Source: an uncultured Verrucomicrobiae bacterium (GTDB lineage Bacteria > Verrucomicrobiota > Verrucomicrobiia > Chthoniobacterales > JAFAMB01). Taken from it: 64,000 nucleotides of DNA. The stretch lies in contig CAVXLD010000001.1 of the NCBI GenBank assembly GCA_963762565.1, positions 198,286 through 262,285 of the forward strand, in the 5' to 3' direction. A program made the position numbers and the translations under genes. The notes under the pieces were generated by a model that saw only the letters and a program-made list of their open reading frames with translations, was not told the origin of the DNA and made no database searches. Of this stretch, positions 7,793 through 63,342 are shown piece after piece. The first letter of the stretch is position 1. The number at the start of each line of letters is the position of its first letter.

Positions 7793-7937
7793 TAGCGAAT
7801 CGGCGTGTGGGCGAAACGGCGAAAGGGCGAAATGGAAGCCGTACGGCGAAAGTTTCGGTGCGCCCATGACGTGCAACTTTCTATCGATGCCGACGCGCCG
7901 AGATTTTCGCCCTTTCGCCCATTCGCCCATTCGCCGG
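7793..7937. repeat. Array-bracketed element H1 (GGCGAAN arrays)
   Basis: Left gtgtgggcgaaacggcgaaagggcgaaatgg. Right ttttcgccctttcgcccattcgcccattcgccgg. The 67-nt core ends in gcgccgag, like a family-A left arm. Confidence 0.75.
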
Positions 7938-7953
7938 TGCGCGCTTCTAGCTC

Positions 7954-14381: not shown

Positions 14382-14420
14382 CTTTGGCGTTTGGCGTGTC
14401 GGCGGACGGGACCGCAATTT

Positions 14421-14701
14421 GGTGGGGCGAGGCTCCCGAACGGAAGATGTACTTTCACAGCGCCCCTCGCTGAACCTCATGAGTTGTCGGCAACACCGAT
14501 GGACCGCCGAGCCGTCGGTCTGCAGCGTTTCAATACCCCGTTAGAATGAAGAACGTGCGTAGCAGATGCTTCAGATGCGCTGATTAGTTGTACGCGCTGG
14601 GACGCGGCTCGGCACGCCAATCGGCGAAACCTCGCGCGCAGTTTCGCAAAATCGAGCCTCTTTGTCGGAGATTTTAGGTCACTCGGGAGCCTCGCCCCAC
14701 C
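14421..14701. repeat. Family A element, copy A1 (281 nt)
   Basis: TIRs ggtggggcgaggctcccgaa (14421-14440) / tcgggagcctcgccccacc (14683-14701). Internal gccgagccg (14506-14514) / cggctcggc (14605-14613). GGCGTTT units on the left flank (14384-14405). Confidence 0.9.
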
Positions 14702-14847
14702 AACGTTGGGCCGCTACACGCGGATGCTCACAGATTCTTCCTCCGCATCCCATGCCGTAACCGACTCAAAATCAAGCAATTGCGTCTATTACGGCGACCC
14801 CCTTGCAGTTTCTGTGCCACTCTCCTACTATTCACTCACGACAACTT

Positions 14848-17019: not shown

Positions 17020-17034
17020 GGGGCCAGAAAAGTT

Positions 17035-17270
17035 GGTGGGGCGAGGCTCCGGAACTACGATTTTGTGTTCACAGGGGAGTTGATGCACTTAACCCAGCGC
17101 TCACAATTTCGATACGCTGCCGAGCCGCTGTTCTGTCGTGTGGCCGGCACCTTATTCCATGGGAGATCAGGGGAATCGGCTCGGCGGTCCTTCCGGCCTA
17201 ACGTTGCGTCCGGCGTCAAATCATCGAGGTCTCCGATATAGCGTCCGGTCTTTCGGGAGCCTCGCCCCAC
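17035..17270. repeat. Family A element, copy A2 (236 nt)
   Basis: TIRs 17035-17054 / 17252-17270. Internal 9-mers 17119-17127 / 17177-17185. Followed by cgtttcgcccattcg units. Confidence 0.9.
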
Positions 17271-17412
17271 TAATGCCCGCCGTTTCGCCCATTCGTTGCG
17301 TTTTGGTGGTTACAGTAATTGTTGCGTTCTTTCCGGTAGAAAAATCGGGAAAAGCAAGATAAAAATATAACGCCATCTCCCGCAGGCGTGTTATCATAAA
17401 GGCGATTGTATC

Positions 17413-19722: not shown

Positions 19723-19947
19723 ATGGTGATTGGTGATTGGTGGGGCGAGGCTCCCGAAAGGCCTTTTAGTCTTATCAAGCGGGTCAGTTCTCACCCGGAG
19801 ATTATGTCCGCTACGCCGATAAACCCGCCGAGCCGTTGGTCCACGCGAACCATGGCTCGGCAGCGTTTCGGCATAGGTCGTATCGTGGTGAGGATCTTCC
19901 CCCTGCCTTGCGATCGTCATCAGGCCTTTCCGGAGCCTCGCCCTACC
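19718..19947. repeat. Family A element, copy A3 with GTGATTG array on the left
   Basis: The array gtgtgaatggtgattggtgattgg contains the mglA stop. TIRs 19739-19758 / 19928-19947. Minimal central hairpin gccgagccgttggt-ccacgcga-accatggctcggc. Confidence 0.9.
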
Positions 19948-19994
19948 AATTACCCGCAGTTGCGCTTCTTGCCACCCTCATATATGTGTCCGAA

Positions 19995-21061: not shown

Positions 21062-21783
21062 AGCCAGCGGCGCGCTCCCTGCAAAATTCCATTTTCGATT
21101 GGGATCGCCCGAGATGGAACGGACGGTTGCTGTGGCTAATTGTGTTTTCTTTAGGCCTACACTTCGCGGGACTTTACGTTTTCCATGTTGTTTACCCGTC
21201 AACCACTTCTCTGCCTCCCCCAGCGGCTCAAGTCTCGGTACTGAATCCACAAAACCCACAGGACCGCCGGCTCCTTGATTGGGTGGACCTAAACGATCCG
21301 TCTGCGATTAGCGCCCCCAAAGTAGACGACAGCCTGGTCGCAAAATTAGTCCCGGGTTATCGTCCGACGTTTAGCGACGAGACCCCTGAAATCCGGAAAA
21401 GCCAGGCCGGCGCCCCAGCCCAGGAGGCGGCTACTCCTTCGCTTTTTACTCCCGACAATCTTTTCCCTAGGCAAGTCAGGCCTGCTTCTGTTCAACGGAA
21501 GACCAGTTTCGCAAGCCACCTTGAGTTCGGGCCCGCCTTGGAAAATAGAAAACCGGCCACACCGGAGAGACTCCCGACCAGCCAGCGGCTCTCAGAACCC
21601 ACGACTTTCTTTGTGGGAATCAATAAGAAAGGCGAAGTAAAATACCTTTTTCTATTGCGAACTTCGGGAAATGATCAGCTGGATCATCTTGCCGAAGAGG
21701 CTGTTAAGCAGCTGAGATTTCAGCCCGATAACACCGAGAGCTGGGACACGGTTTCGCTGCAGTGGGGCAGCGGCGGGAAGTGA
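21058..21783 (+). CDS. TonB-like / hypothetical anchored protein
   Basis: GTGA overlap with exbD. N-terminal TM, Pro-rich linker, and a C-terminal ~70 aa (VKYLFLLRTSGNDQLDHLAEEAVKQLRFQP) compatible with a TonB C-terminal fold. Weak assignment. Confidence 0.45.
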   Translation: MKPAARSLQNSIFDWDRPRWNGRLLWLIVFSLGLHFAGLYVFHVVYPSTTSLPPPAAQVSVLNPQNPQDRRLLDWVDLNDPSAISAPKVDDSLVAKLVPGYRPTFSDETPEIRKSQAGAPAQEAATPSLFTPDNLFPRQVRPASVQRKTSFASHLEFGPALENRKPATPERLPTSQRLSEPTTFFVGINKKGEVKYLFLLRTSGNDQLDHLAEEAVKQLRFQPDNTESWDTVSLQWGSGGK

Positions 21784-21990
21784 TTAGTGATTAGTGATTA
21801 GTGATTGGTGATTGGTGGGGCGCTGGGGCGATGAAAAAACGTGTAACATGGACGCGGACTGGCACTAATACACTTATAAGTCCCGTCTTGTCATAAGCCC
21901 CATCGATATCAGCCGCGCACATCCTTGCTCTAAACGCTTTTCCATCAGCCCAGGCACCCACTAATCACCAATCACTAATCACCAATCACC
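21781..21990. repeat. TGATTAG/TGATTGG array-bracketed element (A-related variant)
   Basis: The left 5 heptamers begin with the TGA stop of the tonB-like gene and are followed by tggggcgctggggcg. Right cccactaatcaccaatcactaatcaccaatcacc. The core lacks the canonical A TIR. Confidence 0.8.
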
Positions 21991-22055
21991 TTCCCTGCCC
22001 TATTGACGCACCCGCCCCTCCGCGGGACGATGTTGGTAGCGGCCACAAACTGTCC

Positions 22056-23532: not shown

Positions 23533-24780
23533 GTGATGAGCGATAGACGTGTTGTAGTCACCGGGTTGGGTGTTATCACACCAATCGGTAATGACCTTAA
23601 AACCTTTTGGGAGAACCTTGTAGCGGGGAAAAACGGGATCCGTAAGATCTCGCATTTCGACGCCTCCATCTTCGACTGTCACATTGCCGGCGAGGTGCCA
23701 GATTTCGATCCCATTACGTATCTGGCTAATCCTAAGGACGTTCGGCGGACCGACCGTTTTTCCCAATTTGCTCTGGCCTGCTCAAAGCGGGCCCTAGAAG
23801 ACAGTGGTCTCGATCTGGAACGCATCGACCGCACTCGGGTCGGCGTCCTGGTCGGCAGTGGGATCGGCGGCTTGAGCACACTGGAGACCCAACATGTGGT
23901 TTTCTTGAAGAAAGGCCCTTCCAGAGTGTCTCCCTTCATGGTGCCAATGATGATCGTGAACATGGCCAGCGGATTAATCGCGATGGAATACGGCTTTGAA
24001 GGCCCGAATTATTCTATCGTGACCGCTTGTGCCACCTCCGCGAACTCCATTGGCGAAGCTTGGAGGATGATTCGCGATGATGAAGCCGAGATTTTCTTGG
24101 CCGGCGGTACCGAGGCGGTCATCAATAATCTTGGCCTCGGCGGCTTCTGTGCGATGCGGGCGATGAGCACGAGAAACGATGAACCGCACCGGGCATCGCG
24201 CCCATTCGATAGGGAACGAGACGGGTTCGTGATGGGTGAAGGCGGTGGAGTCTTAATTCTCGAGGAGTACGAACACGCAAAGGCTCGAGGGGCACGCATC
24301 TACTGCGAACTCGCTGGTTATGGACTTACCTGCGATGCTTACCACATGACCGCGCCCAAACCCGATGGGACGCCGGTAGCGCGAGGGATGCAAATCGCCG
24401 CGAAGCGGGCCGGCGTTAATCCGACGGATATTGATTACATCAACGCTCACGCCACATCGACACAGGTCGGCGATGTTTGCGAAACGAATGCGATTAAACG
24501 GTTCGCCGGTGATTACGCGAAAAATGGTCTTTTGATTAGCTCAACCAAATCGATGATTGGTCATCTGCTCGGCGGCGCTGGAGCAGTAGAAAGCGCGGTC
24601 TGCATCCTTGCCATGCAACATGGTGTGGTGCCGCCCACGATCAATCTCGACAATCCTGACCCTGAGTGCGACCTCGACTACGTCCCAAATGTCGCACGCG
24701 AGAAAAAAGTACGAGTCGCACTTAATAATTCGTTTGGCTTCGGCGGCCACAACGCATCGCTTTGTTTCAAAGCATTGTAG
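23533..24780 (+). CDS. fabF: 3-oxoacyl-ACP synthase II
   Basis: RRVVVTGLGVITPIG, ACATS active-site Cys, HATST and GHLLGGAG motifs. Confidence 0.95.
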   Translation: MMSDRRVVVTGLGVITPIGNDLKTFWENLVAGKNGIRKISHFDASIFDCHIAGEVPDFDPITYLANPKDVRRTDRFSQFALACSKRALEDSGLDLERIDRTRVGVLVGSGIGGLSTLETQHVVFLKKGPSRVSPFMVPMMIVNMASGLIAMEYGFEGPNYSIVTACATSANSIGEAWRMIRDDEAEIFLAGGTEAVINNLGLGGFCAMRAMSTRNDEPHRASRPFDRERDGFVMGEGGGVLILEEYEHAKARGARIYCELAGYGLTCDAYHMTAPKPDGTPVARGMQIAAKRAGVNPTDIDYINAHATSTQVGDVCETNAIKRFAGDYAKNGLLISSTKSMIGHLLGGAGAVESAVCILAMQHGVVPPTINLDNPDPECDLDYVPNVAREKKVRVALNNSFGFGGHNASLCFKAL

Positions 24781-24939
24781 GGGGCGTTTGGCGTTCGGCG
24801 TTCGGCGTTTGGCGTTCGGCGTTCGGCGTTCCTATGATTCGAAATGATTGCAACACTGCGGATCTGTCGTGGCTCGTGAGCAAGCGACGCGCGTTATTGA
24901 AGCGCCGAACGCCAAACGGTGAACGCCGAACGCCAAACG
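24781..24939. repeat. Array-bracketed element G1 (GGCGTTY arrays)
   Basis: Seven GGCGTTY units (24781-24830) start 1 nt after the fabF stop. A 71-nt core follows. The inverted array gcgccgaacgccaaacggtgaacgccgaacgccaaacg is at 24902-24939. Confidence 0.85.
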
Positions 24940-25800
24940 AGTAAGTACGTCGTTCTTCTGCTCCTGACCGCATTGTTTTGGTCGTTGGGAGGAGTCCTCA
25001 TCAAGTCCATCGATTGGAATCCTGTCGCCATTGCGGGTTCGCGAAGCTTGATCGCCGTCTTCCTAATCGCCATCCTGCGACCGTCCGCCGTCCGTAAATT
25101 TTCCTGGACCGCATTCTTCGGCGGAATCGCCTACATGGTGACAGTTGTGTTGTTCGTGATTGCAACCAAGCTGACAACCGCTGCCAATGCCATTTTTCTC
25201 CAGTACACGGCTCCGATTTATATCGCTCTGATAAGCCCATGGCTTTTGAAGGAACGTGTTCGTCGACTGGACTGGATTCTGATCGGTCTTGCTTTCGGCG
25301 GAATTGCTCTCTTTTTCTGCGACCGGCTCTCCTTTGCCGGAATTTGGGGAGTAATGGCCGCACTTGTCAGCGGCTTCTCCTACGCGTGGCTTACGATGCT
25401 GTTGCGTCGCCAAAAATCGGCATCCCCCGAAGCCACGGTGTTCATAGGCAACTTGATGACTGTGTTAGTGGCGGCTCCGGCGATGTGGCCGCCGGTGAAC
25501 CTGGGCCATAATTGGCCTTGGCTGCTTGCCTTGGGCGTCCTCCAGCTCACGATTCCCTATTTGCTTTATACACAGGCTATCCGGCATGTGCGTGCGCTGG
25601 ATGCATCTATAATCAGCATGATCGAGCCGATCCTTAATCCGATCTGGGTCATGTTTGCCGTGGGCGAACATCCCGCCAGATGGGCAATCGTCGGAGGATG
25701 CATGGTCCTGGGAACCTCTTTGCTACGGAGTATCTTCGCCTCGCGCGAGCCCGAATCCGAATTCGCCTTAGGCTCATCCGGAATGACAAATGACAGATGA
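24919..25800 (+). CDS. DMT (EamA) family transporter
   Basis: About 10 TM helices in two EamA-like halves. The start is uncertain because the first codons lie in the GGCGTTY-type array. The stop and last ~13 codons lie in element F1. Confidence 0.75.
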   Translation: MNAERQTSKYVVLLLLTALFWSLGGVLIKSIDWNPVAIAGSRSLIAVFLIAILRPSAVRKFSWTAFFGGIAYMVTVVLFVIATKLTTAANAIFLQYTAPIYIALISPWLLKERVRRLDWILIGLAFGGIALFFCDRLSFAGIWGVMAALVSGFSYAWLTMLLRRQKSASPEATVFIGNLMTVLVAAPAMWPPVNLGHNWPWLLALGVLQLTIPYLLYTQAIRHVRALDASIISMIEPILNPIWVMFAVGEHPARWAIVGGCMVLGTSLLRSIFASREPESEFALGSSGMTNDR

Positions 25801-25902
25801 AAAATGACAGATTGGGAAATCCTTCGGTCACACGCGTTCTATTTCGGACATTTGTCATCTGTCATTTGTCATTTGTCATTCGAAACGAGCCTCAGGCGAG
25901 TT
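25760..25902. repeat. Family F element, copy F1 (143 nt)
   Basis: aattcgccttaggctcatccggaATGACAAATGACAGATGAAAAATGACAG, core attgggaaatccttcggtcacacgcgttctatttcggac, then the inverted TGTCATY array and cgaaacgagcctcaggcgagtt. Confidence 0.9.
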
Positions 25903-26329: not shown

Positions 26330-26343
26330 GATGTGACCTCCGG

Positions 26344-26486
26344 ACTCGCCTTAGGCTCGTCCGCAATGACAAATGACAAATAACAGATGACAGATTGGGA
26401 ATTCCTTCGGTCACACGCATTTCTATTTCGGAGATTTGTCATTTGTAATTTGTCATCTGCCATTCCGAACGAGCCTCAGGCGAGTT
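26344..26486. repeat. Family F element, copy F2 (143 nt)
   Basis: Same layout as F1. Core attgggaattccttcggtcacacgcatttctatttcggag. The right end ccgaacgagcctcaggcgagtt supplies the stop of the ABC ATPase gene. Confidence 0.9.
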
Positions 26487-27231
26487 CGGCTTCTGTGAGC
26501 GCTGCTAACACCCGTTCCTTCCAAGCCGTGAAGGCATGATCCTGTCGAGAACGAGGCCGAGGAAGATCGATCCGAAATTGGCGATGAATTTGTCCGGGGC
26601 GTCCCTTGATCACAACGATGCTGTCGGATAATGCGACCGCTTCTTCAATATCGTGCGTCACGAAAAACATGGTCAACGAATGCCTCGCAAAAAGCTCCAT
26701 CAAATGGTCTTGCAGCCGGCTTCGGGTGAGAGCATCGAGGGCGCTAAACGGCTCGTCCAGCAATAGAAGAGATGGTTTTCGCACTAAGGCTCTGGCTATC
26801 GCCACCCTTTGAGCCATCCCTCCCGACAATTGGCGCGGGTAATAATGGGAGAAGGATTCTAAACCAACTTGCTCCAGAATTTCCTTCGCCAACGCTCCGA
26901 TCCGGCTATGCCCGGCCGGGCCGAACCCGAATTCCACATTTTGGCGAACGGTCAGCCACGGCATGAGTCGGGGCTCTTGAAACACGACGCCTAGGTTGGG
27001 GCGTTCGGCATTTGGCGTTTGGCGTTCGGCGTTCGGCGCACGATCGCTATCCCAGCGGATTTCTCCGGAGGTCGGGCGCTCAAGTCCAGCTAGAATCCGC
27101 AACAGCGTGCTTTTGCCCGAGCCGGTCGTACCCACCATCACCGTGACTTGTTGCGGCTCGATCGAAAGCTCAAGATTAGCAATCACCAAAGCGTCACCGT
27201 AAGCCTTCGTTATCTGATCGATTCTTACCAT
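26476..27231 (-). CDS. ABC transporter ATP-binding protein, NitT/TauT (SsuB/TauB-like) family
   Basis: Walker A GTTGSGKST, signature LSGGMAQR, Walker B LLLLDEP. The true start is probably MVRIDQI at 27231, since the track start at 27330 reads through element F3. It contains an in-frame heptamer-array insertion. Confidence 0.9.
   Translation of the reverse strand: MVRIDQITKAYGDALVIANLELSIEPQQVTVMVGTTGSGKSTLLRILAGLERPTSGEIRWDSDRAPNAERQTPNAERPNLGVVFQEPRLMPWLTVRQNVEFGFGPAGHSRIGALAKEILEQVGLESFSHYYPRQLSGGMAQRVAIARALVRKPSLLLLDEPFSALDALTRSRLQDHLMELFARHSLTMFFVTHDIEEAVALSDSIVVIKGRPGQIHRQFRIDLPRPRSRQDHAFTAWKERVLAALTEAELA
26994..27042. repeat. GGCGTTY heptamer array inside the ABC ATPase coding sequence
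   Basis: ggttggggcgttcggcatttggcgtttggcgttcggcgttcggcgcacg. Translated on the minus strand it gives APNAERQTPNAERPN, between the Walker A region and the VVFQEPRLMPW Q-loop. Confidence 0.85.
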
Positions 27232-27243
27232 TGAACTCGCTGA

Positions 27244-27377
27244 GGCTCCTTCAAGATGACAATGACAGATGACAGATGACAAATGTCCGAAATAGACCGC
27301 GCGTGACCGAAGGATCTCCCAATCTGTCATCTGTCATTTGTCATTCCGAACGAGCCTCAGGCGAGTTCGGCTGATAG
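27244..27377. repeat. Family F element, copy F3 (core inverted relative to F1/F2)
   Basis: aactcgctgaggctccttcaagATGACAATGACAGATGACAGATGACAA, core atgtccgaaatagaccgcgcgtgaccgaaggatctcccaatc, then TGTCATCTGTCATTTGTCATtccgaacgagcctcaggcgagtt. Confidence 0.9.
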
Positions 27378-28230: not shown

Positions 28231-28524
28231 TTGTGTCCTGTCCCATAAGTAACATGGCTTTCGCCGTCGGCCAGTTGGCTGTTTTTCAAGGCGCGAGCGA
28301 AGCGCCCATATCTGGTTCATACGGGTCGAGCGAGCAACGCGGAAAAACAGCCAACTGGCCACGGCCCGGAGGGTTGCGATGAAAATGGGCCGGCGGCTGC
28401 GTTGCTCGTCGGTTACGTATCGATCAAGATATGCGCCCTCTACCGCCAGTCCGGCTCGGACCGCCTTGCCGGCGGCCCATTTTGATCGCAACGAAAGCCA
28501 TGTTACTTATGGGACAGGACACTA
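28231..28524. mobile_element. Family D MITE-like element, copy D1 (294 nt)
   Basis: About 33-nt TIRs: tgtgtcctgtcccataagtaacatggctttcg / cgaaagccatgttacttatgggacaggacacta. It fills the gap between the SBP stop (28522-28524) and the permease start (28216). About 96% identical to D2. Confidence 0.9.
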
Positions 28525-29649
28525 GTTGGCAGTCGCGATCCGATCCGCAAACGAGGGATCGAGCAATTCATTCACGATCCTGTCCACGTCGGTGTTGGGA
28601 TCGATGATTCCGTTCGCTTTCAAGGCGTTGGCGGAATCCAGAATAACCTGGCGCTGAGTCGCTCCGAGCCGCGAATCCTTCAGGTTGGTCCTTTCCCACA
28701 CCTTCTCCGCAACGGCCGGGCTTAATTGAGCCGCTGACTGTAGGATGGTACGCGCTTCGTCCGAATGATCCAGGCACCACAGGCGGGCTTTCTCATAAGT
28801 TCGGAGAACGCGCTCAGTAATATCCGGATGCTCGAAAGCGAAAGCTTCCCGTACGTTCAATACCCCGAAACTGTTCCAATCCGCTCGGCGAAAAAACAGC
28901 TTAAATCCCTTGTCGACCTCTAGCTGTGCCATGTACGGATCCAGCCCGGCCCAAGCATCGACCTGCCCCCGTTCCAACGCGACTTTGCCGTCGGGATGCT
29001 GCAAAGGTACAACCTGGATATCCTTTTCGCTCAACCCAGCGGAGGCGAGTGACCGCAAAAGAAAAATATGAGGATCAGTTCCGCGAGTCACGGCCACGCG
29101 TTTGCCACGCAGATCTTCGATCCGCGTTATTCCGGAGCTTGGGCTTGTTACCAGCGCGGTCCATTCGGGCGCAGAATAAACGTAAATCGCTTTGATTGGG
29201 TTGCCGTTTGCTCGCCCGATAAATGCCGCCGCTCCCGCGGTTGAGCCGAAGTCGACACTTTTGCCCCTTAGATACTCCAGCGCTTTGTTACTACCCAGGC
29301 TCTGCACCCACTCCACCTTGATGCCGCTTGAGCCCAGATCCTCCTCTAGCCATTTCTTGTCCTTGAGCACCAGGCTAATCGGATTGTAGTACGCCCAATC
29401 GACTCGAACGGTGTCGACGCTTCCGGCCTTGGAAAATTCGCCAAACCAGAGCGACCCAAACAAACACATAAGGGACAAAATCGAGCTCAGGCGACCTCGC
29501 CTCGGTGATGGCTTAGTTGTGTCACCGTACGCGCGAGGGGGATTGTACCTCGGGCTGCCATGCCTGGAAGATCGAAGTCGGACGGAAAGAATACTGTGCT
29601 GATAGGGTTTCACCCTCCCCATCTCTAGATGTAATCCGCCCGAACGCAA
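28522..29649 (-). CDS. ABC transporter substrate-binding protein, NMT1/SsuA-like
   Basis: Periplasmic-binding-protein pattern (VRVDWAYYNPISLVLK..., AVTRGTDPHIFLL). The start codon is uncertain, with several in-frame ATGs between 29469 and 29649. Confidence 0.8.
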   Translation of the reverse strand: MRSGGLHLEMGRVKPYQHSILSVRLRSSRHGSPRYNPPRAYGDTTKPSPRRGRLSSILSLMCLFGSLWFGEFSKAGSVDTVRVDWAYYNPISLVLKDKKWLEEDLGSSGIKVEWVQSLGSNKALEYLRGKSVDFGSTAGAAAFIGRANGNPIKAIYVYSAPEWTALVTSPSSGITRIEDLRGKRVAVTRGTDPHIFLLRSLASAGLSEKDIQVVPLQHPDGKVALERGQVDAWAGLDPYMAQLEVDKGFKLFFRRADWNSFGVLNVREAFAFEHPDITERVLRTYEKARLWCLDHSDEARTILQSAAQLSPAVAEKVWERTNLKDSRLGATQRQVILDSANALKANGIIDPNTDVDRIVNELLDPSFADRIATAN

Positions 29650-29688
29650 GCCGTTTCGCGCCTAGCGCAGGCGAGCCGGTCACGACTT

Positions 29689-29892
29689 GGAGGGGAGCCG
29701 CTTTGGAATTTTGCGGATCCGTAAGTTGGCAGCAAGCGGCTCCCGGGAACGGTCCAGGGCTGGGCAGCTCTGTGACGGCTTCAAATCGATGCTTGCAACC
29801 GGGTTCTTCCGCCGTGCCTCACATTGGGTAATTCCCGGGAGCCGCTTGCTACCAACCTACAGATCTGCCACGCTACAAAGCGGCTCCCCTCC
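29689..29892. repeat. Family B element, copy B2 (204 nt, double nested inverted repeats)
   Basis: Outer ggaggggagccgctttg (29689-29705) / caaagcggctcccctcc (29876-29892). Inner ttggcagcaagcggctcccgggaa (29726-29749) / ttcccgggagccgcttgctaccaa (29832-29855). Confidence 0.9.
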
Positions 29893-30018
29893 AGTCCTTG
29901 GGCGTGCGACGCCACCGGGCTGATTGCGATGACGAGAACGAAGATGATCGCGCCACAGTGATCACTCACTCCTTGCAAGCCCAGCAGCTCCAGGCCACGG
30001 TTTGGCAGACCTAAAGTT

Positions 30019-31053
30019 ATGATGAACTATCGTTTACTCGGTCGGAGCGGGCTGCGAGTTTCGGAGCTCTGCTTAGGAACCATGACCTTCGGGGAAGATT
30101 GGGGTTGGGGAGCTCCCAAGGATGAAGCACGGAAAATCTACGACGCGTTTCGCGAAGCCGGCGGCAATTTTATCGATACGGCTAACGTTTATACGCAGGG
30201 TTCGAGCGAAACCTTTCTCGGCGAGTTCTTTTCGGAACACCGTGATAGCGTGGTTCTCGCCACGAAATACACCAATGCGCTAACCACCAATGACCCGAAT
30301 GCCGGGGGAAACCAGCGCAAGAATATGATGCAAGCCGTTGAAGGCAGTTTGCGTCGCCTGAAAACCGATTACATCGACCTCTATTGGCTTCATATCTGGG
30401 ATCAAATGACGCCAGTTGAAGAAGTGATGCGCGCCTTCGATGACCTGGTTCGCCAAGGTAAAGTCCTTTATGTCGGCGTTTCCGATGCACCTGCCTGGTG
30501 GATCAGTAAAGCGAATACGATCGCTGAGCTCCGTGGATGGTCGCCCTTCGTCGGTCTGCAGATTGAGTATTCACTGATCGAACGTACGGTCGAACGGGAG
30601 CTGATTCCGGCAGCGAAACATCTTGGGCTCACGGTCACCGCCTGGTCACCTTTAGCGGGTGGCGTTCTCACCGGCAAATATGCGTCAGGCGAAGCCACCG
30701 ACTCCCGTTATTCTACCGAAATGATGAAACAATGGTTACCAGAGCAAACTCGGACTGCTCGCATCGTTGAGGCTCTTCAGAATGTCAGTAAACAGACCGG
30801 ACGGAGTAAAGCCCAGATCGCATTGGCTTGGCTGCGACATCGCGCCGTCCCGGTTATCCCTATTGTGGGCGCCCGCAAACTGACTCAGCTTGAAGACAAC
30901 ATCGCCAGTCTGACACTCACTCTCACTCCGGACCAACTGGCCTTATTGGATGAGGCCAGTCAGATCGAGCTCGGTTTCCCGTACCACTTCTACGCTAACG
31001 AGATGGTCCGCACGTTCGTGTACGGCGGTGTAAGGGACCACATAATCACGTGA
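30019..31053 (+). CDS. Aldo/keto reductase
   Basis: YRLLGRSGLRVSELCLGTMTFG, IDTANVY and LYWLH motifs. Confidence 0.9.
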   Translation: MMNYRLLGRSGLRVSELCLGTMTFGEDWGWGAPKDEARKIYDAFREAGGNFIDTANVYTQGSSETFLGEFFSEHRDSVVLATKYTNALTTNDPNAGGNQRKNMMQAVEGSLRRLKTDYIDLYWLHIWDQMTPVEEVMRAFDDLVRQGKVLYVGVSDAPAWWISKANTIAELRGWSPFVGLQIEYSLIERTVERELIPAAKHLGLTVTAWSPLAGGVLTGKYASGEATDSRYSTEMMKQWLPEQTRTARIVEALQNVSKQTGRSKAQIALAWLRHRAVPVIPIVGARKLTQLEDNIASLTLTLTPDQLALLDEASQIELGFPYHFYANEMVRTFVYGGVRDHIIT

Positions 31054-31345
31054 TTAGTGATTAGTGATTGGCGATGGCGCTGGTCGGGCGAGGCTCCCGA
31101 AAGAACTAAAGTCTCTAACGAAGATCCAGACGTTTCGGCCTGAAAGAGTTTGTTAGGCCGATCGGTGTGCCGAGCCGTGGTTCCGCGCGTAACCCGGCTC
31201 GGCGCGTTGCTAGAAGTAGCATGCCTTCTTAATTCGGAATGCGAAGGGAGATGGAAAATCACAGAGTCTTTCGGGAGCCTCGCCCTACCAACGGCGTCTC
31301 ATCCACCATCACCTCTCACCAATCACCAATCACTTCTCACCTTCT
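31051..31345. repeat. Family A element, copy A5 with inverted TGATTAG-type arrays
   Basis: The array starts on the aldo/keto reductase TGA stop. TIRs 31082-31101 / 31270-31289. Central hairpin gccgagccgtggtt-ccgcgcgt-aacccggctcggc. Right array atcaccaatcaccaatcact (to ~31345). Confidence 0.9.
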
Positions 31346-31348
31346 CCG

Positions 31349-32527: not shown

Positions 32528-33517
32528 ATGGACCGGTTTTTCGTTGAGACTAGACGGGTAAGAACGTATGTTCAAACCCGAGGGACGGGCGTGCCGCTCG
32601 TCTTTATCCACGGTGCTCTGTTAAACTCCGACCTGTGGACCCACCAAATCGAGACCTTCTCGGATCTATTTCAGGTTGTTGCCTACGATTTGCGTGGACA
32701 CGGACGCACTGGTCCGTCCGATTTGAAACGCTATACAACCGGTACTTTCGCCGATGATCTGGCCGAGATTCTCGACGCCTTAGAACTTAGCCGGCCGATC
32801 GTGTGCGGCCTCTCTATGGGCGGTATGATTGCACAAAGCTTTGCCGCCAAATATCCGGAGCGAGTGCGCGCGCTCGTGCTATGCGATACCGGGGTATCAA
32901 CCTGCCATTATTTAACCGACAGAATCTTGAACCAGGCCATCGGATTGGTGACACCGACAGCAACGCTTCTAGGGGTTCCAGAGTTCCGCCGGTTCACCCA
33001 TTTGGTCAACCAATGCTTCGGCGATCATAGTTGGGTGGCTCAGACTGAAAAAAGCATCAATTTCGTGGCGAAGGCTGTCGGAATGGTTAAGCCCCAAGAA
33101 GTCGCCAAGATCGTCACTGCTCTCCGGAAGTTTGACAGTTCTCCACTCTACCGGCCTAAGATCCCGGCACTGATTCTCAATGGAGAAAGCGATTCTCCCT
33201 TTATTCTTCGGCACGCTAAGATACTGCAGGATGCTTACGTAGGATCCAATTATCGAACCATTCCGAAAGCAGGCCATTTAGCAAACCTTGATAACCCCGT
33301 GATTTTTGATTTGAGGTTGTTAGAATTTTTGACGGAACTATCCGCTAAGCCAGCTAGAGAGTTTGCAGTGATGGCTTGGCTGGCCCACACTTTGGCTCGC
33401 GGGCGCAGCCTGATTCAAACTTTTACTTCCAAGAAAAGCTCGACCGTTCAGGAGTATAACGGGCCGCTCTTAGAGACGAAGGAGAGGAGTCAGGCACCAG
33501 ACCTGCGCCCTCGTTAG
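32528..33517 (+). CDS. Alpha/beta hydrolase
   Basis: PLVFIHGA oxyanion region and GLSMGG nucleophile elbow. Confidence 0.85.
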   Translation: MDRFFVETRRVRTYVQTRGTGVPLVFIHGALLNSDLWTHQIETFSDLFQVVAYDLRGHGRTGPSDLKRYTTGTFADDLAEILDALELSRPIVCGLSMGGMIAQSFAAKYPERVRALVLCDTGVSTCHYLTDRILNQAIGLVTPTATLLGVPEFRRFTHLVNQCFGDHSWVAQTEKSINFVAKAVGMVKPQEVAKIVTALRKFDSSPLYRPKIPALILNGESDSPFILRHAKILQDAYVGSNYRTIPKAGHLANLDNPVIFDLRLLEFLTELSAKPAREFAVMAWLAHTLARGRSLIQTFTSKKSSTVQEYNGPLLETKERSQAPDLRPR

Positions 33518-33564
33518 CACACTATTTCTACTCGCTGACGGCGATTCCTGCGGCTTCAGAACGT

Positions 33565-33858
33565 TAGTGTGCTGTCCCATAAATAACATGGCTTTCGCCG
33601 TCGGTCAGTTGGCTGTTTTTCAAGGCGCGAGCGAAGCGCCCATATCTGGTTCATACGGGTCGAGCGAGCAACGCGGAAAAACAGCCAACTGGCCTCGGCC
33701 CGGAGGGTTGCGATGAAAATGGGCCGGCGGCTGCGTTGCTCGTCGGTTACGTATCGATCTAGATATGCGCCCCTTACCGCCAGTCCGGCTCGGACCGCCT
33801 TACCGGCGGCCCATTTTGATCACAACGAAAGCCATGTTATTTATGGGACAGCACACTA
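33565..33858. mobile_element. Family D MITE-like element, copy D2 (294 nt)
   Basis: TIRs tagtgtgctgtcccataaataacatggctttcg / cgaaagccatgttatttatgggacagcacacta. About a dozen substitutions versus D1 and no indels. Confidence 0.9.
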
Positions 33859-33865
33859 GGAGCGC

Positions 33866-34351
33866 TCACTTGTCCAGGTTAGTCGGTTCTGTCAACCGAG
33901 TCGCTTGCTCTTTTTGAGCTTGCACCGTCAGTCGATCCAGGGCACCGGTACCCTCTGGCTGTTTTACGTCGGCCTCGCGATCCACCGATTTAGTATCCTT
34001 CGCGTCTTGCTGGTCCGGCTGCTTTTTATCACCGCTACGACCGCTATTTGTCGTCTGGGCTACGTGATTCTCGCCATCCCGAATTGTTGACGCTTCCGGA
34101 TCACGCCGGCGATTCTGCGGAGCAATGGTCGAGTGGAATGATCGATTTGCTGGGGTAATCGAGTGAAGACCATTGGCAGATCTGACATAAATCACTCGAT
34201 CTTCCCGACCGCCTACCACTATGACCCGCTTGACGATTACACGAGTTGCCACCGTCGGGACGGTAGGAACCTGATCGTCATCAGCCTTTGCAATTGCGCA
34301 TAGGCAAAGGCCCACGCTTAGCCCAGTTATAAGAAGTCGCGCTTTCTTCAT
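33866..34351 (-). CDS. Hypothetical secreted protein
   Basis: Start preferred at MKKARLLITGLSVGLCLCAIAKA (34351). The signal peptide resembles that of 43023-43940. The C-terminal half is charged and low-complexity. Confidence 0.5.
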   Translation of the reverse strand: MKKARLLITGLSVGLCLCAIAKADDDQVPTVPTVATRVIVKRVIVVGGREDRVIYVRSANGLHSITPANRSFHSTIAPQNRRRDPEASTIRDGENHVAQTTNSGRSGDKKQPDQQDAKDTKSVDREADVKQPEGTGALDRLTVQAQKEQATRLTEPTNLDK

Positions 34352-38767: not shown

Positions 38768-38817
38768 CCATGGAAGACATCCCCCAACCTGCCTTTGGCC
38801 GACGCAATTCGGACCCG

Positions 38818-39022
38818 GAGGGGAGCCGCTTTATCGTTAGGCAGCTCTGTAATTCGGCAGCAAGCGGCTCCCGAGAACGGCCCCGGATGATGCAGGTCTA
38901 TTGGGCAGCCATATCGACCAGCTTGGAACAGAGCCGCTGGGCAAATATTTACGCTGGGTTATTCCCGGGAGCCGCCTGCTGCCAACTGATAGGACTGCCA
39001 CACTACAAAGCGGCTCCCCTCC
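38818..39022. repeat. Family B element, copy B3 (205 nt)
   Basis: Outer repeats 38818-38834 / 39006-39022. Inner repeats 38853-38877 / 38962-38985. The right flank ctgggcatgcgacgcc resembles the B2 flank. Confidence 0.9.
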
Positions 39023-39068
39023 AGGCGCTGGGCATGCGACGCCGTGTTCTTAGAAGCACGAAGCGCAC

Positions 39069-40944: not shown

Positions 40945-41762
40945 AATCCCTCTTCAGTTACTATCGATGGTTGGTCTTGCTTCTGGTAGCGAGTTTTTGC
41001 CTGGTTCCATTGTGGGCAACCGTCGTGGGTGGGTTTAAGTCGACGGGTGACCTCCGTACGAATGCTCTCGGCTTGCCCCGGCAGTGGCTGGTAGACAATT
41101 ATATTTCCATCGTCTCGACTCCGCGGTTTTGGCAGATGCTTTGGAATTCGGCTGTGATCGCCTTTTTCACGGTCGTACTAACATTGATAGTCAGTTCACT
41201 AGCTGCATATACTCTAGCTCATTTGCGCTTCGCTGGGCGCAAATGGATCGCCAACTACCTGACCCTGGGACTGACTTTCCCGTTCGCCACTGCAGTCTTG
41301 CCAGTATTTATTCGGGTTCGCGATCTCGGCCTGCTCGACACCTACTGGGGCGTCATCCTCCCCCAAGTCGCCTTTAACTTAAGCTTTAGCATCGTGTTGC
41401 TGCGCGGTTTCTTCTCAGAGTTACCAAAGGAATTGTTTGAAGCTGCGATCATGGATGGTTGCAGTTATCCACGAATCTTTTTGCGCATTACCCTGCCGCT
41501 CTCTCGCCCGATCCTGGCCACTGTCGGCGTTCTGGCTCTGGTCGGAAGCTGGAACAACTTCCTTTTGCCATTGGTTACCATCAATGACGACTCCGTTTAT
41601 CCATGGCCTTTAGGAATCATGCAGTTTCAAGGTCAATACAGCACCGACTGGGGGAAGGTGCTGGCTTTCGTAACCCTCACCATGCTTCCCGCTATCACGC
41701 TGTATCTGATGGCCCAGAAACAGGTCATTGCCGGCCTTACTTCGGGAGCCGTTAAGGGTTAG
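40941..41762 (+). CDS. Carbohydrate ABC transporter permease
   Basis: MalG-type permease with the loop EAAIMDGCSYPRIFLRITLPLSRP. ATGA overlap with the upstream permease. Confidence 0.85.
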   Translation: MKSLFSYYRWLVLLLVASFCLVPLWATVVGGFKSTGDLRTNALGLPRQWLVDNYISIVSTPRFWQMLWNSAVIAFFTVVLTLIVSSLAAYTLAHLRFAGRKWIANYLTLGLTFPFATAVLPVFIRVRDLGLLDTYWGVILPQVAFNLSFSIVLLRGFFSELPKELFEAAIMDGCSYPRIFLRITLPLSRPILATVGVLALVGSWNNFLLPLVTINDDSVYPWPLGIMQFQGQYSTDWGKVLAFVTLTMLPAITLYLMAQKQVIAGLTSGAVKG

Positions 41763-41897
41763 CGTTTGGCGTTTGGCGTTCGGCGTTGGCAGTTGGTAGC
41801 GCTCGAGCTCAGTAAGCGGTTTTCTTCTACATAGCGCTCATTATTTTGGGACGACCACGGCCGCCTTTCACCTTTCACTTCTCACTGATCACTAACC
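41763..41897. repeat. Hybrid array element G2 (GGCGTTY array left, CCTTTCA/CTNATCA array right)
   Basis: cgtttggcgtttggcgttcggcgttggc starts 1 nt after the permease stop. Right side cctttcacctttcacttctcactgatcactaacc. The two arrays are not complementary. Confidence 0.7.
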
Positions 41898-46607: not shown

Positions 46608-46648
46608 GTAAGAGCGGAACGTAACACAGCATTACAAATAACCAAGCT

Positions 46649-46894
46649 GGTGGGGCGAGGCTCCGGAATAACCTGAAATGGCAAACGGAGAACTCGATTT
46701 AGTCTAAACCGAGATCGCGCTTCGCCAATGGGCGCGCCGAGCCGATCCCAGCGTGTGGCAGCCGACGATCGGTCAGGGGGGGTGGAACATGCTGGGACCG
46801 GCTCGGCGCGTTTAGCGGCATCGCCCACGATAGATTGGCAAACATTGACGTCCTCCGCTCGAGCAAAGCGGCCGTTCGGGAGCCTCGCCCCACC
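46649..46894. repeat. Family A element, copy A6 (246 nt)
   Basis: TIRs 46649-46668 / 46875-46894. Internal 9-mers 46736-46744 / 46799-46807. Confidence 0.9.
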
Positions 46895-46902
46895 AACGCC
46901 TC

Positions 46903-50746: not shown

Positions 50747-50796
50747 GGAAACTTAGCGAACGCCAAGCCTAGACCTGATCCCGTATCGGGGCAAGA

Positions 50797-50992
50797 GGGC
50801 GAATAGGCGAAACGGCGAGTGGGTCAATGGGCGAAAAGGCGACAACGCGTCAGAATCATCTCTGAACGCTATGGCAGAAAACTCGACGGTCTCGCGACAC
50901 GAGTTGCTGTTTCAGACAAACGCAGCGGTTTTGAGCCGTTCCGCGGGCACCCTCGCCGTATCGCCCTTTTCGCCCACTCGCCGTTTCGCTCC
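50797..50992. repeat. Array-bracketed element H2 (GGCGAAN arrays)
   Basis: Left gggcgaataggcgaaacggcgagtgggtcaatgggcgaaaaggcgac. Right cctcgccgtatcgcccttttcgcccactcgccgtttcgctcc. 107-nt core. Confidence 0.8.
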
Positions 50993-51007
50993 CGCGTCCG
51001 GAAACGT

Positions 51008-57046: not shown

Positions 57047-57194
57047 GGTGAGCGAGGCTCCGGCACGACAAAATGCATTGCCAAACCCAGCGATAGGCCC
57101 GGCTCGGCGAGCTGTGCAGCGTTGCACCGGTCAAGTAGGGGCAGCATAGCGGCTTTGCGAAAATCGATCGGTCGTTCGGGAGCCTCGCCCTACC
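57047..57194. repeat. Family A half element A8 (left TIR joined to right half)
   Basis: ggtgagcgaggctccggca (57047-57065), only cggctcggc (57100-57108), a 66-nt right arm, and TIR ttcgggagcctcgccctacc (57175-57194). Confidence 0.75.
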
Positions 57195-57243
57195 ACGCTC
57201 GTTGACGGCGTCGTGTTGCCATGCATACCTGACCCTTCGTCCT

Positions 57244-61026: not shown

Positions 61027-61035
61027 AGGGTTTTT

Positions 61036-61317
61036 GGTAGGGCGAGGCTCCCGAACATCCCGACATCTTCGCAACGCCGGGGATGATCTTCTACCAGTGT
61101 ATTAACGTGGCCGATCAGCGCGCCGAGCCGTTGGTCCCAGCGAGTTCCATGACCCACAAGAACGGATCGAAGGTTTTTAAAAGTTCTCGCACGTCGAAGC
61201 GGTTAAATCAGCGCTGGGTAAATCGGCTCGGCGGGCAGACCGGGGCTGGACGCGTTTAATCCAAAAAATCACGGGCCCTGCGAAAGTGCATTCGTAATTC
61301 GGGAGCCTCGCCCTACC
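61036..61317. repeat. Family A element, copy A9 (282 nt)
   Basis: TIRs ggtagggcgaggctcccgaa (61036-61055) / ttcgggagcctcgccctacc (61298-61317). Internal 9-mers 61122-61130 / 61224-61232. Confidence 0.9.
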
Positions 61318-61370
61318 CCCCTCGCAGAGTCCTAGCTAACCAGGACGATTCTGCTACCATAGCCGCATCA

Positions 61371-63092: not shown

Positions 63093-63125
63093 TGTAGACA
63101 TGGACCCGGAAGGGGGAGACACCCG

Positions 63126-63335
63126 GAGGGGAGCCGCTTTGTCAGACGCTAGCTGTGTTCGGTCGGCAGCAGGCGGCTCCCGGGAATAGCCCAGCGCGTT
63201 CTATTTATCCAGCGCCTACTTCGTTGAAGCACCGACACGGACAGAGCCTATAGAGCTGGATTACCTGGCAGACGTTACCGGGAGCCGCCTGCAAGCAACC
63301 GATAGACCTGCCAACTTACAAAGCGGCTCCCCTCC
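63126..63335. repeat. Family B element, copy B4 (210 nt)
   Basis: Outer repeats 63126-63142 / 63319-63335. Inner tcggcagcaggcggctcccgggaa (63163-63186) / ttaccgggagccgcctgcaagcaa (63275-63298). Confidence 0.85.
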
Positions 63336-63342
63336 GGCGCCG

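What the first reader, a model, noticed from the sequence alone, without database searches (positions are those of the whole stretch)
33565..33858. Family D internal layout: an inverted dimer of two diverged units, each with its own long stem, plus loop-loop complementarity
Inside the ~33-bp terminal stem there are two further long stems. The first pairs ggccagttggctgtttttc with gaaaaacagccaactggcc (about 19 bp). The second pairs gttgcgatgaaaatgggccggcgg with ccggcggcccattttgatcgcaac (22 of 24 bp in D1). This gives a three-way junction. The two enclosed loops are homologous in inverted orientation, sharing caaggcg, gcgcccatatct/agatatgcgcc and atacg. They also contain a 10-nt complementary pair, cgagcaacgc in loop 1 and gcgttgctcg in loop 2, that could form a long-range or kissing interaction. 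The right unit also carries ccggctcgg, the family A central motif. That is a lot of ordered structure for a 294-nt non-coding element.
Basis: partly seen in the sequence, partly recalled or inferred. Interest (0 to 1): 0.65.

Follow-up and report, generated by a model that had tools for sequence, protein, structure and literature searches.

The report
Mobile mini-transposon with three-armed hairpin
The 294-base "structured element" is one copy of a small non-coding jumping-DNA family (a MITE) common in soil Verrucomicrobia. It inserts at CTAG sites and duplicates TA, so its elaborate fold is mostly a product of its palindromic build, not evidence of a dedicated RNA gene.

Summary
Window 33565-33858 has a perfect 33-bp terminal inverted repeat, two long inner stems (19 and 24 bp), loops that are homologous in inverted orientation, and a 10-nt loop-loop complement. 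Both strands fold into the same three-way junction (z about -12).

- A second copy, 96% identical, lies at 28231-28524.
- TIR scans found 14 genome loci (mostly Verrucomicrobiota MAGs) and at least 120 soil metagenome contigs.
- Of 63 TIR-paired copies, 62 have TA on at least one flank. The site consensus is C-TA-G.
- A 97%-identical strain variant carries the empty site (…AACGC-TA-GGAGC…) exactly where the window has TA + 290 bp + TA. A second empty site matches the other copy.

TA duplication at CTAG is the hallmark of IS630/Tc1-mariner transposition. No cognate transposase was found.

The kissing-loop idea fails. The 10-mer pairing is lost in 9 of 36 full-length copies, with no compensation, and it is only one of four remnants of an old palindrome.

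The inner stems are real and are conserved about as well as, or better than, the TIRs. Covariation is sparse, wobble usage is not strand-specific, and two G·G mismatches are fixed.

Verdict: a new member of a known kind, of modest interest.

The parts
33565..33566 (.). Left copy of the duplicated target dinucleotide TA.
   Evidence: The empty site in strain variant L140 has a single TA (…AACGC TA GGAGC…) where the window has TA-element-TA. TA flanks 46 of 63 left ends.
33567..33597 (+). Left terminal inverted repeat (TIR), 31 bp: GTGTGCTGTCCCATAAATAACATGGCTTTCG.
   Evidence: Conserved across 36 copies, with pairwise difference 0.051.
33603..33621 (+). Stem 1, 5' arm.
   Evidence: I3. 97% of cells are paired across copies. 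The C-G to U-A double change at columns 49/156 occurs in 5 copies.
33622..33675 (+). Loop 1. It is homologous in inverted orientation to loop 2 and contains CGAGCAACGC at 33665-33674.
   Evidence: It is variable, with hairpin modules present in some copies and absent in others. Pairwise difference is 0.129.
33676..33694 (+). Stem 1, 3' arm.
33695..33706 (+). Linker between the two units (CGGCCCGGAGGG region).
33707..33730 (+). Stem 2, 5' arm.
   Evidence: I2. It is nearly invariant, with pairwise difference 0.012. Two G·G mismatches are fixed in 35-36 of 36 copies.
33731..33802 (+). Loop 2. It contains GCGTTGCTCG at 33733-33742 and the small hairpin GTCCGGCTCGGAC at 33783-33795.
   Evidence: Pairwise difference is 0.179 and the gap fraction is 0.29.
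33803..33826 (+). Stem 2, 3' arm. Short family members that lack the 5' arm still keep it next to the right TIR.
33826..33856 (-). Right terminal inverted repeat, 31 bp.
33857..33858 (.). Right copy of the duplicated target dinucleotide TA.
28231..28524 (+). Second family D copy (core 28233-28522), 96% identical to the first and in the same orientation on the + strand. It is inserted at the TAG stop codon of the sulfonate-binding-protein gene (28522-29649, - strand), upstream of the permease gene.
   Evidence: The orthologous empty site in L141 reads …GCCAAC TAG AATCAC… with a 12-nt intergenic gap.
32528..33517 (+). Flanking alpha/beta-hydrolase gene. It is not part of the element and was used to find the empty site.
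33866..34351 (-). Flanking convergent 161-aa gene. It is not part of the element, and its stop lies 8 nt from the element.

Best explanation
Window 33567-33856, with its sister at 28233-28522, is a copy of a non-autonomous DNA transposon: a bacterial MITE of a family spread through soil Verrucomicrobiota of the Chthoniobacterales type.

**Mechanism.** It most likely moves by cut-and-paste. A DDE transposase of the IS630/Tc1-mariner superfamily, supplied in trans, would bind the 31-bp terminal inverted repeats and excise the element. It would then insert it at a TA dinucleotide, preferably inside 5'-CTAG-3' (more loosely YTAR). Repair of the staggered cut duplicates the TA.

The element begins with G and ends with C, so CTAG is rebuilt on both sides. 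A TAG stop codon hit by the insertion stays a stop codon.

**Internal layout.** It is historical. The element is a degenerate long palindrome made of two units related by inversion. Each unit carries its own 19-24-bp stem, and the loops are decorated with small GC-rich hairpin modules that come and go between copies. Either DNA strand, or a read-through transcript in either direction, therefore folds into the same three-armed structure. The loop-loop complement is a remnant of the palindrome, not a maintained tertiary contact.

**Shown here:** the TIRs, the TA duplication, the CTAG preference, two empty sites, the many dispersed copies, the size variants, the intergenic location, and the non-maintenance of the kissing pair.

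**Inferred:** the identity of the transposase, and whether the strongly conserved inner stems serve any cis function in mobilisation.
For: - **Copies.** Two copies lie in the window. Together these hold 63 TIR pairs of 56-451 nt and 80 unpaired TIRs, many at contig ends.
- **Target duplication.** TA lies on both flanks in 31 of 63 copies and on at least one flank in 62 of 63. The background TA frequency is 3.4%. Position -3 is C in 42 of 63 and +3 is G in 44 of 63.
- **Empty site for this copy.** L140 is a strain variant with a 97%-identical hydrolase gene and the same neighbouring genes, from the same sample as the window-identical contig L015. It reads TTCAGAACGC-TA-GGAGCGCTCACTT where the window reads ttcagaacgt-TA-[290 bp]-TA-ggagcgctcactt. 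Orthologous loci L138 and L139 also lack the element.
- **Empty site for the sister copy.** L141 has AAC-TAG-AAT and a 12-nt gap.
- **TSD length.** The first and last element bases (G, C) are essentially invariant while the -3 and +3 positions vary. This excludes a 4-bp CTAG duplication.
- **Location.** 58 of 60 distinct insertions are not spanned by an ORF of 120 aa or more. Seventeen sit in the TAG stop codon of such an ORF.
- **Modular variants.** There are TIR-only forms (56-101 nt), one-unit forms (148-186 nt), two-unit forms (272-324 nt), and forms with other palindromic elements nested inside (332-451 nt).
- **Published basis.** IS630-family elements insert at TA and duplicate it, and IS630 prefers TA within CTAG (PMC2170065 and the Tenzen & Ohtsubo 1991 paper it cites). 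Bacterial MITEs such as RUP, Correia and ERIC carry TA at their termini, and their transcripts fold into long stem-loops (PMC2229807).
Against: - No autonomous partner was found. No TIR pair 0.6-4 kb apart encloses a transposase in 839 kb of fetched loci. No multi-copy ORF family looks like a transposase. None of ten window ORFs of the right size is one.
- The assignment to IS630/Tc1-mariner therefore rests on the TA/CTAG signature alone.
- The inner stems are conserved about as well as, or better than, the TIRs: pairwise difference 0.012-0.070 against 0.051-0.060, with loops at 0.13-0.18. Pure 'historical by-product' does not explain this.
- There is a modest excess of double (compensatory) changes: 13 pairs against 5.0 ± 1.5 in shuffles.
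Confidence: 0.84

Rival explanations
1. This is the first reader's reading: a dedicated structured non-coding RNA (or cis-regulatory RNA) whose function depends on the three-way junction and a loop-loop kissing contact.
For: - The fold is very stable (z about -12).
- The junction is recovered by RNAalifold on 36 copies.
- The stems are more conserved than the loops.
- There are a few compensatory changes, such as C-G to U-A at columns 49/156 in 5 copies and the G/C swap in the small hairpin.
- 13 pairs show double changes against 5.0 in shuffles.
Against: - The element is a precise insertion, present or absent between strains, with TA duplication.
- The fold is equally good on both strands and as DNA.
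- Wobble usage is not strand-specific: 50 G-U against 39 A-C.
- There is no Rfam match at gathering score, and only a chance-level hit at E 0.87.
- There is no promoter-like site.
- Copies lie in both orientations relative to genes that read into them, 22 against 10, and these are not independent.
- The kissing pair is lost in 9 of 36 copies without compensation.
- The RNAalifold covariation term is only -0.54 of -121.6 kcal/mol.
- Two G·G mismatches in stem 2 are fixed in all copies.
- One-unit and zero-unit family members also exist.
Confidence: 0.08
2. It is a MITE of a different superfamily, the IS5 / PIF-Harbinger type. These target YTAR or TNA and duplicate 3-4 bp (here CTAG) rather than TA.
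For: The flanks read C-TA-G around the element. If the terminal G and C are counted as target sequence, this looks like a 4-bp CTAG duplication. The claim that IS5 targets YTAR with a 4-bp duplication rests on my own knowledge of ISfinder descriptions.
Against: A 4-bp duplication requires the base at -3 to equal the last element base, and the base at +3 to equal the first. Yet -3 is T, A or G in 21 of 63 copies and +3 is A, C or T in 19 of 63. The terminal G and C stay fixed in 35-36 of 36 aligned copies.
Confidence: 0.06
3. It is a REP/BIME- or REPIN-like palindromic repeat, spread by a RAYT (Y1) transposase or by recombination rather than by a DDE transposase.
For: The window is packed with other short intergenic palindromic repeat families. 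Family D also contains small GC-rich palindromic modules that move between positions.
Against: - REPs are palindromes of 20-40 bp without TIR-plus-target-duplication architecture (PMC3733652 abstract).
- Family D has 31-bp TIRs, a TA duplication and precise empty sites.
- The modules CCGGCAGCTGCCGG do not occur elsewhere in the window.
Confidence: 0.02

Closest known systems
RUP (repeat unit of pneumococcus), the MITE proposed to be mobilised by IS630-Spn1
   Same: It is non-coding, bounded by TIRs, multi-copy and mostly intergenic. It inserts at TA with TA at its termini. Mobilisation in trans by an IS630-family transposase is inferred (PMC2229807).
   Different: - RUP is 107 bp with short TIRs, forms a single stem-loop, and has a known cognate IS.
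- Family D is 290 bp with 31-bp TIRs and two inner 19-24-bp stems, giving a three-way junction.
- Its hosts are soil Verrucomicrobiota, and no cognate IS was found here.
Correia / NEMIS elements of Neisseria
   Same: - Both duplicate TA and have TIRs of about 24-26 bp.
- Both have length variants that differ by an internal block.
- Filled and empty sites differ between strains.
- Transcripts fold into long hairpins (PMC2229807).
   Different: Correia elements are 107-155 bp single hairpins with an IHF site and promoter-like ends, and RNase III processing has been shown. None of this was tested for family D. There is no sequence relationship, and no promoter-like site was found.
CIR repeats of Caulobacter and Brucella
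   Same: The predicted RNA has two long inverted-repeat arms joined by a linker (PMC2229807). This resembles the two inner arms of family D.
   Different: CIR lacks TIRs and a clear target duplication, and its mobility is uncertain. Family D has both, plus a third, terminal stem.
IS630 / ISY100 (bacterial Tc1-mariner family insertion sequences)
   Same: They insert at TA with a 2-bp TA duplication, and IS630 prefers TA inside CTAG (PMC2170065 and references there). This is the same signature as the 63 family D copies.
   Different: These are autonomous elements of about 1-1.2 kb that encode the transposase. Family D encodes nothing, and no such partner with matching TIRs was recovered.

Membership tests
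Bacterial MITE (non-autonomous DNA transposon) | Terminal inverted repeats. | tested here: met
   The arms are 31 bp (33 with the TA) and 100% complementary. They are conserved in 36 aligned copies.
Bacterial MITE (non-autonomous DNA transposon) | Target-site duplication flanking the element. | tested here: met
   TA is on both flanks in 31 of 63 copies and on at least one flank in 62 of 63, against a 3.4% background. A single TA is present at the empty site.
Bacterial MITE (non-autonomous DNA transposon) | Small size with no transposase or other gene inside. | tested here: met
   The core is 290 bp. The only ORFs of 50 aa or more that touch it are a 50-aa frame running out of the element and the start of the flanking 221-aa frame.
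Bacterial MITE (non-autonomous DNA transposon) | Many dispersed copies at unrelated sites. | tested here: met
   There are 2 copies in the window, 14 genome loci and at least 120 metagenome contigs, giving 60 distinct flanks among the paired copies.
Bacterial MITE (non-autonomous DNA transposon) | Insertion polymorphism: filled and precise empty sites in related genomes. | tested here: met
   L140 (97% orthologue) is empty at exactly the TA. L141 is empty for the sister copy.
IS630 / Tc1-mariner-mobilised element | 2-bp TA duplication, not 3-4 bp. | tested here: met
   The terminal G and C are fixed while -3 and +3 vary, which excludes a 4-bp duplication.
IS630 / Tc1-mariner-mobilised element | Preference for TA within CTAG (NTAN). 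| tested here: met
   Position -3 is C in 42 of 63 copies and +3 is G in 44 of 63. CTAG itself is under-represented in these loci, with 1550 observed against 3226 expected.
IS630 / Tc1-mariner-mobilised element | A resident autonomous IS with matching TIRs that encodes a DDE (DD34-35E type) transposase. | tested here: inconclusive
   None was found in 839 kb of fetched loci or in the window.
IS630 / Tc1-mariner-mobilised element | The transposase binds the TIRs and catalyses excision and integration. | not testable with these tools
   This needs a biochemical or genetic assay.
Known structured RNA family (Rfam) | A match to a curated covariance model. | tested here: not met
   There were 0 matches at gathering score in the 64-kb window. 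The only hit on the element was a chance-level one, mir-1827 at 16.6 bits against a gathering score of 82, E 0.87.
Functional structured RNA (generic) | Base pairs supported by covariation beyond what relatedness explains. | tested here: inconclusive
   13 pairs show double changes against 5.0 ± 1.5 in shuffles. However, most stem columns never vary, and the RNAalifold covariation term is -0.54 kcal/mol. The TIRs, which are DNA sites, show the same kind of double changes.
Functional structured RNA (generic) | Strand specificity: a G-U excess on one strand and a consistent orientation to transcription. | tested here: not met
   There are 50 G-U against 39 A-C cells. The fold is equal on both strands. 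Orientation relative to genes reading into the element is 22 opposite and 10 same.
   The pair is full in 21 of 36 copies and 7 or fewer of 10 in 9 of 36. One side is replaced by an unrelated palindrome while the partner is unchanged.
REP / BIME / REPIN | Palindromic units of 20-40 bp without TIR-plus-TSD architecture, associated with a RAYT. | tested here: not met
   The unit is 290 bp with 31-bp TIRs and a TA duplication. No RAYT was looked for beyond the ORF surveys.

The most novel reading that the evidence does not exclude
The two inner stems may be working parts of the transposon rather than fossils.

- They are conserved about as well as, or better than, the TIRs across diverged sub-families.
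- They keep two fixed G·G mismatches, so each arm's sequence is conserved, not just the pairing.
- They have equal lengths in the two units but unrelated sequences.

They could be extra protein-binding sites. Alternatively they could be hairpin- or cruciform-forming arms that bring the two TIRs together for synapsis of a short element, or that give read-through transcripts a defined processing or termination structure. That would make family D a three-armed MITE whose mobilisation or persistence depends on internal structure, which has not been described for bacterial IS630-type MITEs.
Probability: 0.15. Interest if true: 0.5.

Novelty: new member of a known kind. Interest (0 to 1): 0.3.

Why it matters
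The finding explains a conspicuous 'highly structured' intergenic element as mobile DNA. This prevents its mis-annotation as an RNA gene in soil Verrucomicrobiota genomes and MAGs, where such repeats also break assemblies: many TIRs sit at contig ends.

It adds a well-supported IS630-type MITE family, with two precise empty sites, to a phylum for which I found none described. This rests on limited literature searches.

Two details may interest transposon specialists.
- Seventeen of 60 insertions sit in a TAG stop codon that the element's terminal G rebuilds.
- The inner stems are unusually strongly conserved.

Insertions inside operons, such as the copy between the sulfonate-binding-protein and permease genes, place a hairpin of about -165 kcal/mol in the mRNA and could affect expression. 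This was not tested.

Tried and rejected
- **Rfam.** A scan at gathering score (whole window) and at E ≤ 1 (the element) gave nothing meaningful. ARAGORN found no tRNA or tmRNA.
- **Promoter and terminator scan.** No promoter-like site. The terminator-like hits are just parts of stem 1 followed by its T-run.
- **Search for the autonomous partner.** I looked for TIR pairs 0.6-4 kb apart, shared inner content next to unpaired TIRs, ORFs next to 'solo' TIRs, multi-copy ORF clusters in 839 kb of loci, and Pfam families in ten window ORFs of transposase-like size. All turned out to be ordinary host genes.
- **Plasmid collection.** blastn of the element found no match.
- **IR/DR idea** (inner stems as repeats of the TIR binding site, as in Sleeping Beauty). 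Local alignment of the TIR against the stem arms is at chance, P 0.24-0.61. Rejected.
- **4-bp CTAG duplication (IS5-like).** Rejected because the terminal G and C are fixed while -3 and +3 vary.
- **Unit 1 as an independent nested element.** Its stem sequence occurs only inside family D copies. Rejected.
- **'Family A motif' link.** It is only a shared 9-mer, with no flanking homology.
- **AGCACACTA match.** The 9-nt match between host flank 33516-33524 and the TIR tip (D4/I9) is also present at the empty site. It is within chance for a 600-nt region.
- **Orientation bias** relative to genes reading into the element (22 against 10). It is weak, the copies are not independent, and I do not rely on it.
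- **Look-up of P0085** (92% orthologue) found no contig.

Full report
**1. The observation**

- a 33-nt perfect terminal inverted repeat (33565-33597 / 33826-33858);
- an inner 19-nt stem (33603-33621 / 33676-33694, 95% complementary);
- a second inner 24-nt stem (33707-33730 / 33803-33826, 88%);
- a perfect 10-nt complement between the two enclosed loops (33665-33674 / 33733-33742).

ViennaRNA folds the + strand RNA, the - strand RNA and the + strand as ssDNA into the same three-way junction. The z-scores are -11.9, -11.8 and -12.1, and no shuffle folded as well. The two loops are homologous only in inverted orientation: z is 5.9 for loop 1 against the reverse complement of loop 2, and about 1 for the direct comparison. 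So 'an inverted dimer of two diverged units' is an accurate description.

Minor corrections:
- Several quoted strings come from the sister copy at 28231-28524.
- Stem 2 is 21 of 24 at the stated coordinates.
- The 'family A motif' ccggctcgg is a shared 9-mer (8 hits against 1.09 expected) with no homology around it.

**2. A repeat family**

A second copy, 96% identical, lies at 28231-28524 in the same orientation.

An exact-pattern scan with 22 nt of the terminal repeat found 14 loci in one-genome-per-species contigs. Ten of these are in Verrucomicrobiota MAGs, and the rest are in bins labelled Acidobacteriota, Terriglobales or Actinomycetota.

In these loci I found 63 pairs of terminal repeats, 56-451 nt apart, with modes near 272, 290 and 310-320. 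There were also 80 unpaired ends, many of them at contig ends, as expected for a repeat that breaks assemblies.

The closest named homologues of the window's flanking genes are from Chthoniobacterales and 'Verrucomicrobia bacterium'.

**3. Mobile DNA with a TA target duplication**

The two bases outside the 31-bp repeat are TA on both sides in 31 of 63 copies and on at least one side in 62 of 63. TA makes up only 3.4% of dinucleotides in the same DNA. The next base out is C on the left (42 of 63) and G on the right (44 of 63), so the preferred site is C-TA-G.

The decisive evidence is an empty site. The hydrolase gene upstream of the element has a 97%-identical orthologue (P0001) on another contig. 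That contig comes from the same sample as the window-identical contig L015. There the convergent neighbour gene follows after 56 nt instead of 349 nt. The sequence reads …TTCAGAACGC-TA-GGAGCGCTCACTT…, where the window reads …ttcagaacgt-TA-[290 bp]-TA-ggagcgctcactt….

More distant orthologous loci (L138, L139) also lack the element.

For the sister copy, a 90% orthologue of the upstream sulfonate-binding-protein gene is followed after 12 nt by the permease gene. That site reads …GCCAAC-TAG-AATCAC…. The window has the element exactly after the TA of that stop codon.

**4. Which kind of transposon**

The terminal G and C of the element are essentially invariant, while the bases at -3 and +3 vary in about a third of copies. 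The duplication is therefore 2 bp (TA), not 4 bp (CTAG).

Insertion at TA with TA duplication, and a preference for TA inside CTAG, is the published signature of IS630 and of the bacterial and eukaryotic Tc1/mariner family (PMC2170065 and the Tenzen & Ohtsubo papers cited there). Bacterial MITEs with TA at their termini include RUP, Correia/NEMIS and ERIC, and their transcripts typically fold into long stem-loops (PMC2229807).

I therefore assign family D to the IS630/Tc1-mariner-type MITEs. The transposase itself is inferred, because I did not find it. No terminal-repeat pair 0.6-4 kb apart encloses a transposase, no multi-copy ORF family in the 839 kb of fetched loci looks like one, and ten window ORFs of suitable size are ordinary enzymes and transporters.

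**5. The internal structure across copies**

Thirty-six distinct full-length copies, 73-97% identical to the window copy in the interior, were aligned as A2.

*Stems.*
- The three long helices are kept: 97%, 97% and 91% of cells are paired. RNAalifold recovers the junction.
- Most stem columns never vary, so covariation has little to work on. Thirteen pairs show a change on both sides against 5.0 ± 1.5 in column shuffles. The covariation term is -0.54 of -121.6 kcal/mol.
- The terminal repeats, which are protein-binding DNA sites in this class of element, show the same kind of double change. An example is C-G to G-C at columns 5/335 in the window copy and L011.
- Wobble pairs are not strand-specific: 50 G-U against 39 A-C.
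- Stem 2 has two G·G mismatches fixed in 35-36 of 36 copies.

*Kissing pair.*
- It is fully complementary in 21 of 36 copies and reduced to 7 or fewer of 10 in 9 copies.
- In about seven copies the loop-2 partner is replaced by a GC palindrome, usually CCGCGGCCGCGG, while loop 1 is unchanged. In L037 loop 1 is replaced while loop 2 is essentially unchanged, with a single substitution.
- Other complementary blocks left over from the inverted homology are kept as well or better. CATATCT/AGATATG is kept in 34 of 36 copies.

**6. Modularity and history**

The family includes:
- terminal-repeat-only hairpins (56-101 nt);
- one-unit forms (148-186 nt) that keep loop 2 and the 3' arm of stem 2, sometimes without its partner arm;
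- the two-unit forms;
- 332-451-nt forms with other palindromic elements nested inside.

Small GC-rich hairpin modules are present or absent at four positions. The same palindrome, CCGGCAGCTGCCGG, appears at three different positions. The loop-1 module GTGCGAGCCGCAC is the inverted homologue of the loop-2 hairpin GTCCGGCTCGGAC, with a compensatory G/C swap.

The stem sequences occur only inside family D copies, so unit 1 is not an independent element that nested in.

The arms of the two stems are of similar length (about 24 nt if stem 1 is extended by a bulged segment) but unrelated in sequence. They also do not resemble the terminal repeat, so an IR/DR-type arrangement of repeated transposase sites is not supported.

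**7. What remains unexplained**

Across copies, the pairwise differences are 0.012-0.070 in the stem arms, 0.051-0.060 in the terminal repeats and 0.13-0.18 in the loops, which also carry many indels. The terminal-repeat value is, if anything, biased low, because copies were found through an exact match in one repeat.

Such conservation, together with the fixed mismatches, suggests constraint on the sequence of each arm. This would act in the lineages that give rise to new copies, beyond simple hairpin maintenance. I cannot tell whether it reflects a cis role in mobilisation, a host-level effect of the RNA or DNA structure, or sampling of a few recent master copies. This is the basis of the 'novel case'.

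**8. Genomic setting**

Fifty-eight of 60 distinct insertions are not spanned by an ORF of 120 aa or more. Seventeen sit in the TAG stop codon of such an ORF.

The element starts with G, so TA + G restores the stop. The window's sister copy does this to the sulfonate-binding-protein gene, and it sits about 15 nt upstream of the likely start of the permease gene.

The copy under review lies between two convergent genes, 48 nt and 8 nt from their stops. CTAG is about two-fold under-represented in these loci. That scarcity, together with selection against insertions in genes, would concentrate surviving copies at gene ends.

**9. Verdict**

The structural description is right, the kissing interaction is not maintained, and the element is best explained as a new family of a known kind of mobile DNA. 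Interest is modest.

Noticed in passing
Alignment A2 (for example L024:2263-2579, L054:80-396, L122:391-705), compared with window 33598-33602, 33731-33745 and 33775-33802: Small GC-rich palindromic modules (CCGGCAGCTGCCGG, CCGCGGCCGCGG, GTGCGAGCCGCAC / GTCCGGCTCGGAC) are swapped in and out at four positions inside family D copies. The same 14-nt palindrome occurs at three different positions. The mechanism is unknown: recombination between sub-families or template switching are possibilities. The palindrome does not occur elsewhere in the window.
   Followed up: partly
Window 28522-28524, and 17 of 60 insertions in the loci (for example L002:5709, L023:3464, L088:6314): Insertions sit in the TAG stop codon of an upstream gene. 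The stop is rebuilt from the duplicated TA plus the element's terminal G.
   Followed up: yes
L137:3470-3600, and window 25756-25902, 26339-26486 and 27261-27370: A different palindromic repeat family, made of AATGACA / GATGACA heptamer runs, occupies the same hydrolase-downstream intergenic region in an 88% orthologous locus. It also has three copies around the ABC-transporter genes in the window.
   Followed up: no
Window 14417-14708, 17031-17278, 19735-19954, 31078-31296, 46645-46901, 57151-57201 and 61032-61324: An abundant intergenic inverted-repeat family ends in TGGTGGGGCGAGGCTCCCGAA / TTCGGGAGCCTCGCCCCACCA.
   Followed up: partly
Window 29684-29913, 38812-39043 and 63121-63356: Another palindromic repeat family, of about 200 nt, has arms GGAGGGGAGCCGCTTTG… / …CAAAGCGGCTCCCCTCC. 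There are three copies (D6, D15, I4, I6).
   Followed up: no
Window 7795-7950, 24776-24939, 26986-27052, 41754-41806, 50790-50997 and 63337-63412; also 21775-21994 and 31050-31347: Short tandem arrays of 7-8-nt units (GGCGTTC / GGCGTTT, TCGCCCNT, GTGATTA / GTGATTG) often form the arms of inverted repeats in intergenic regions.
   Followed up: no
L022:154-485, L094:724-1068, L072:5634-5994, L018:5320-5705 and L082:4786-5236: Larger family D copies carry other long palindromic elements nested inside. Several are bounded by GGCGTCAACCTAAG… / …CTTAGGTTGACGC, which suggests a further MITE family that inserts into family D.
   Followed up: no
L011 (Acidobacteriota bin), L014 (Terriglobales bin) and L007 (Actinomycetota bin): Family D copies, including one 96% identical to the window copy, occur on contigs binned to phyla other than Verrucomicrobiota. 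This could be mis-binning or horizontal spread. I did not check it.
   Followed up: no
Window 33516-33524 compared with 33850-33858: A host flank 40 nt upstream of the insertion (AGCACACTA) matches the tip of the right terminal repeat plus the TA. It is also present at the empty site in L140. A 9-mer match of this kind is expected by chance in a 600-nt region.
   Followed up: yes
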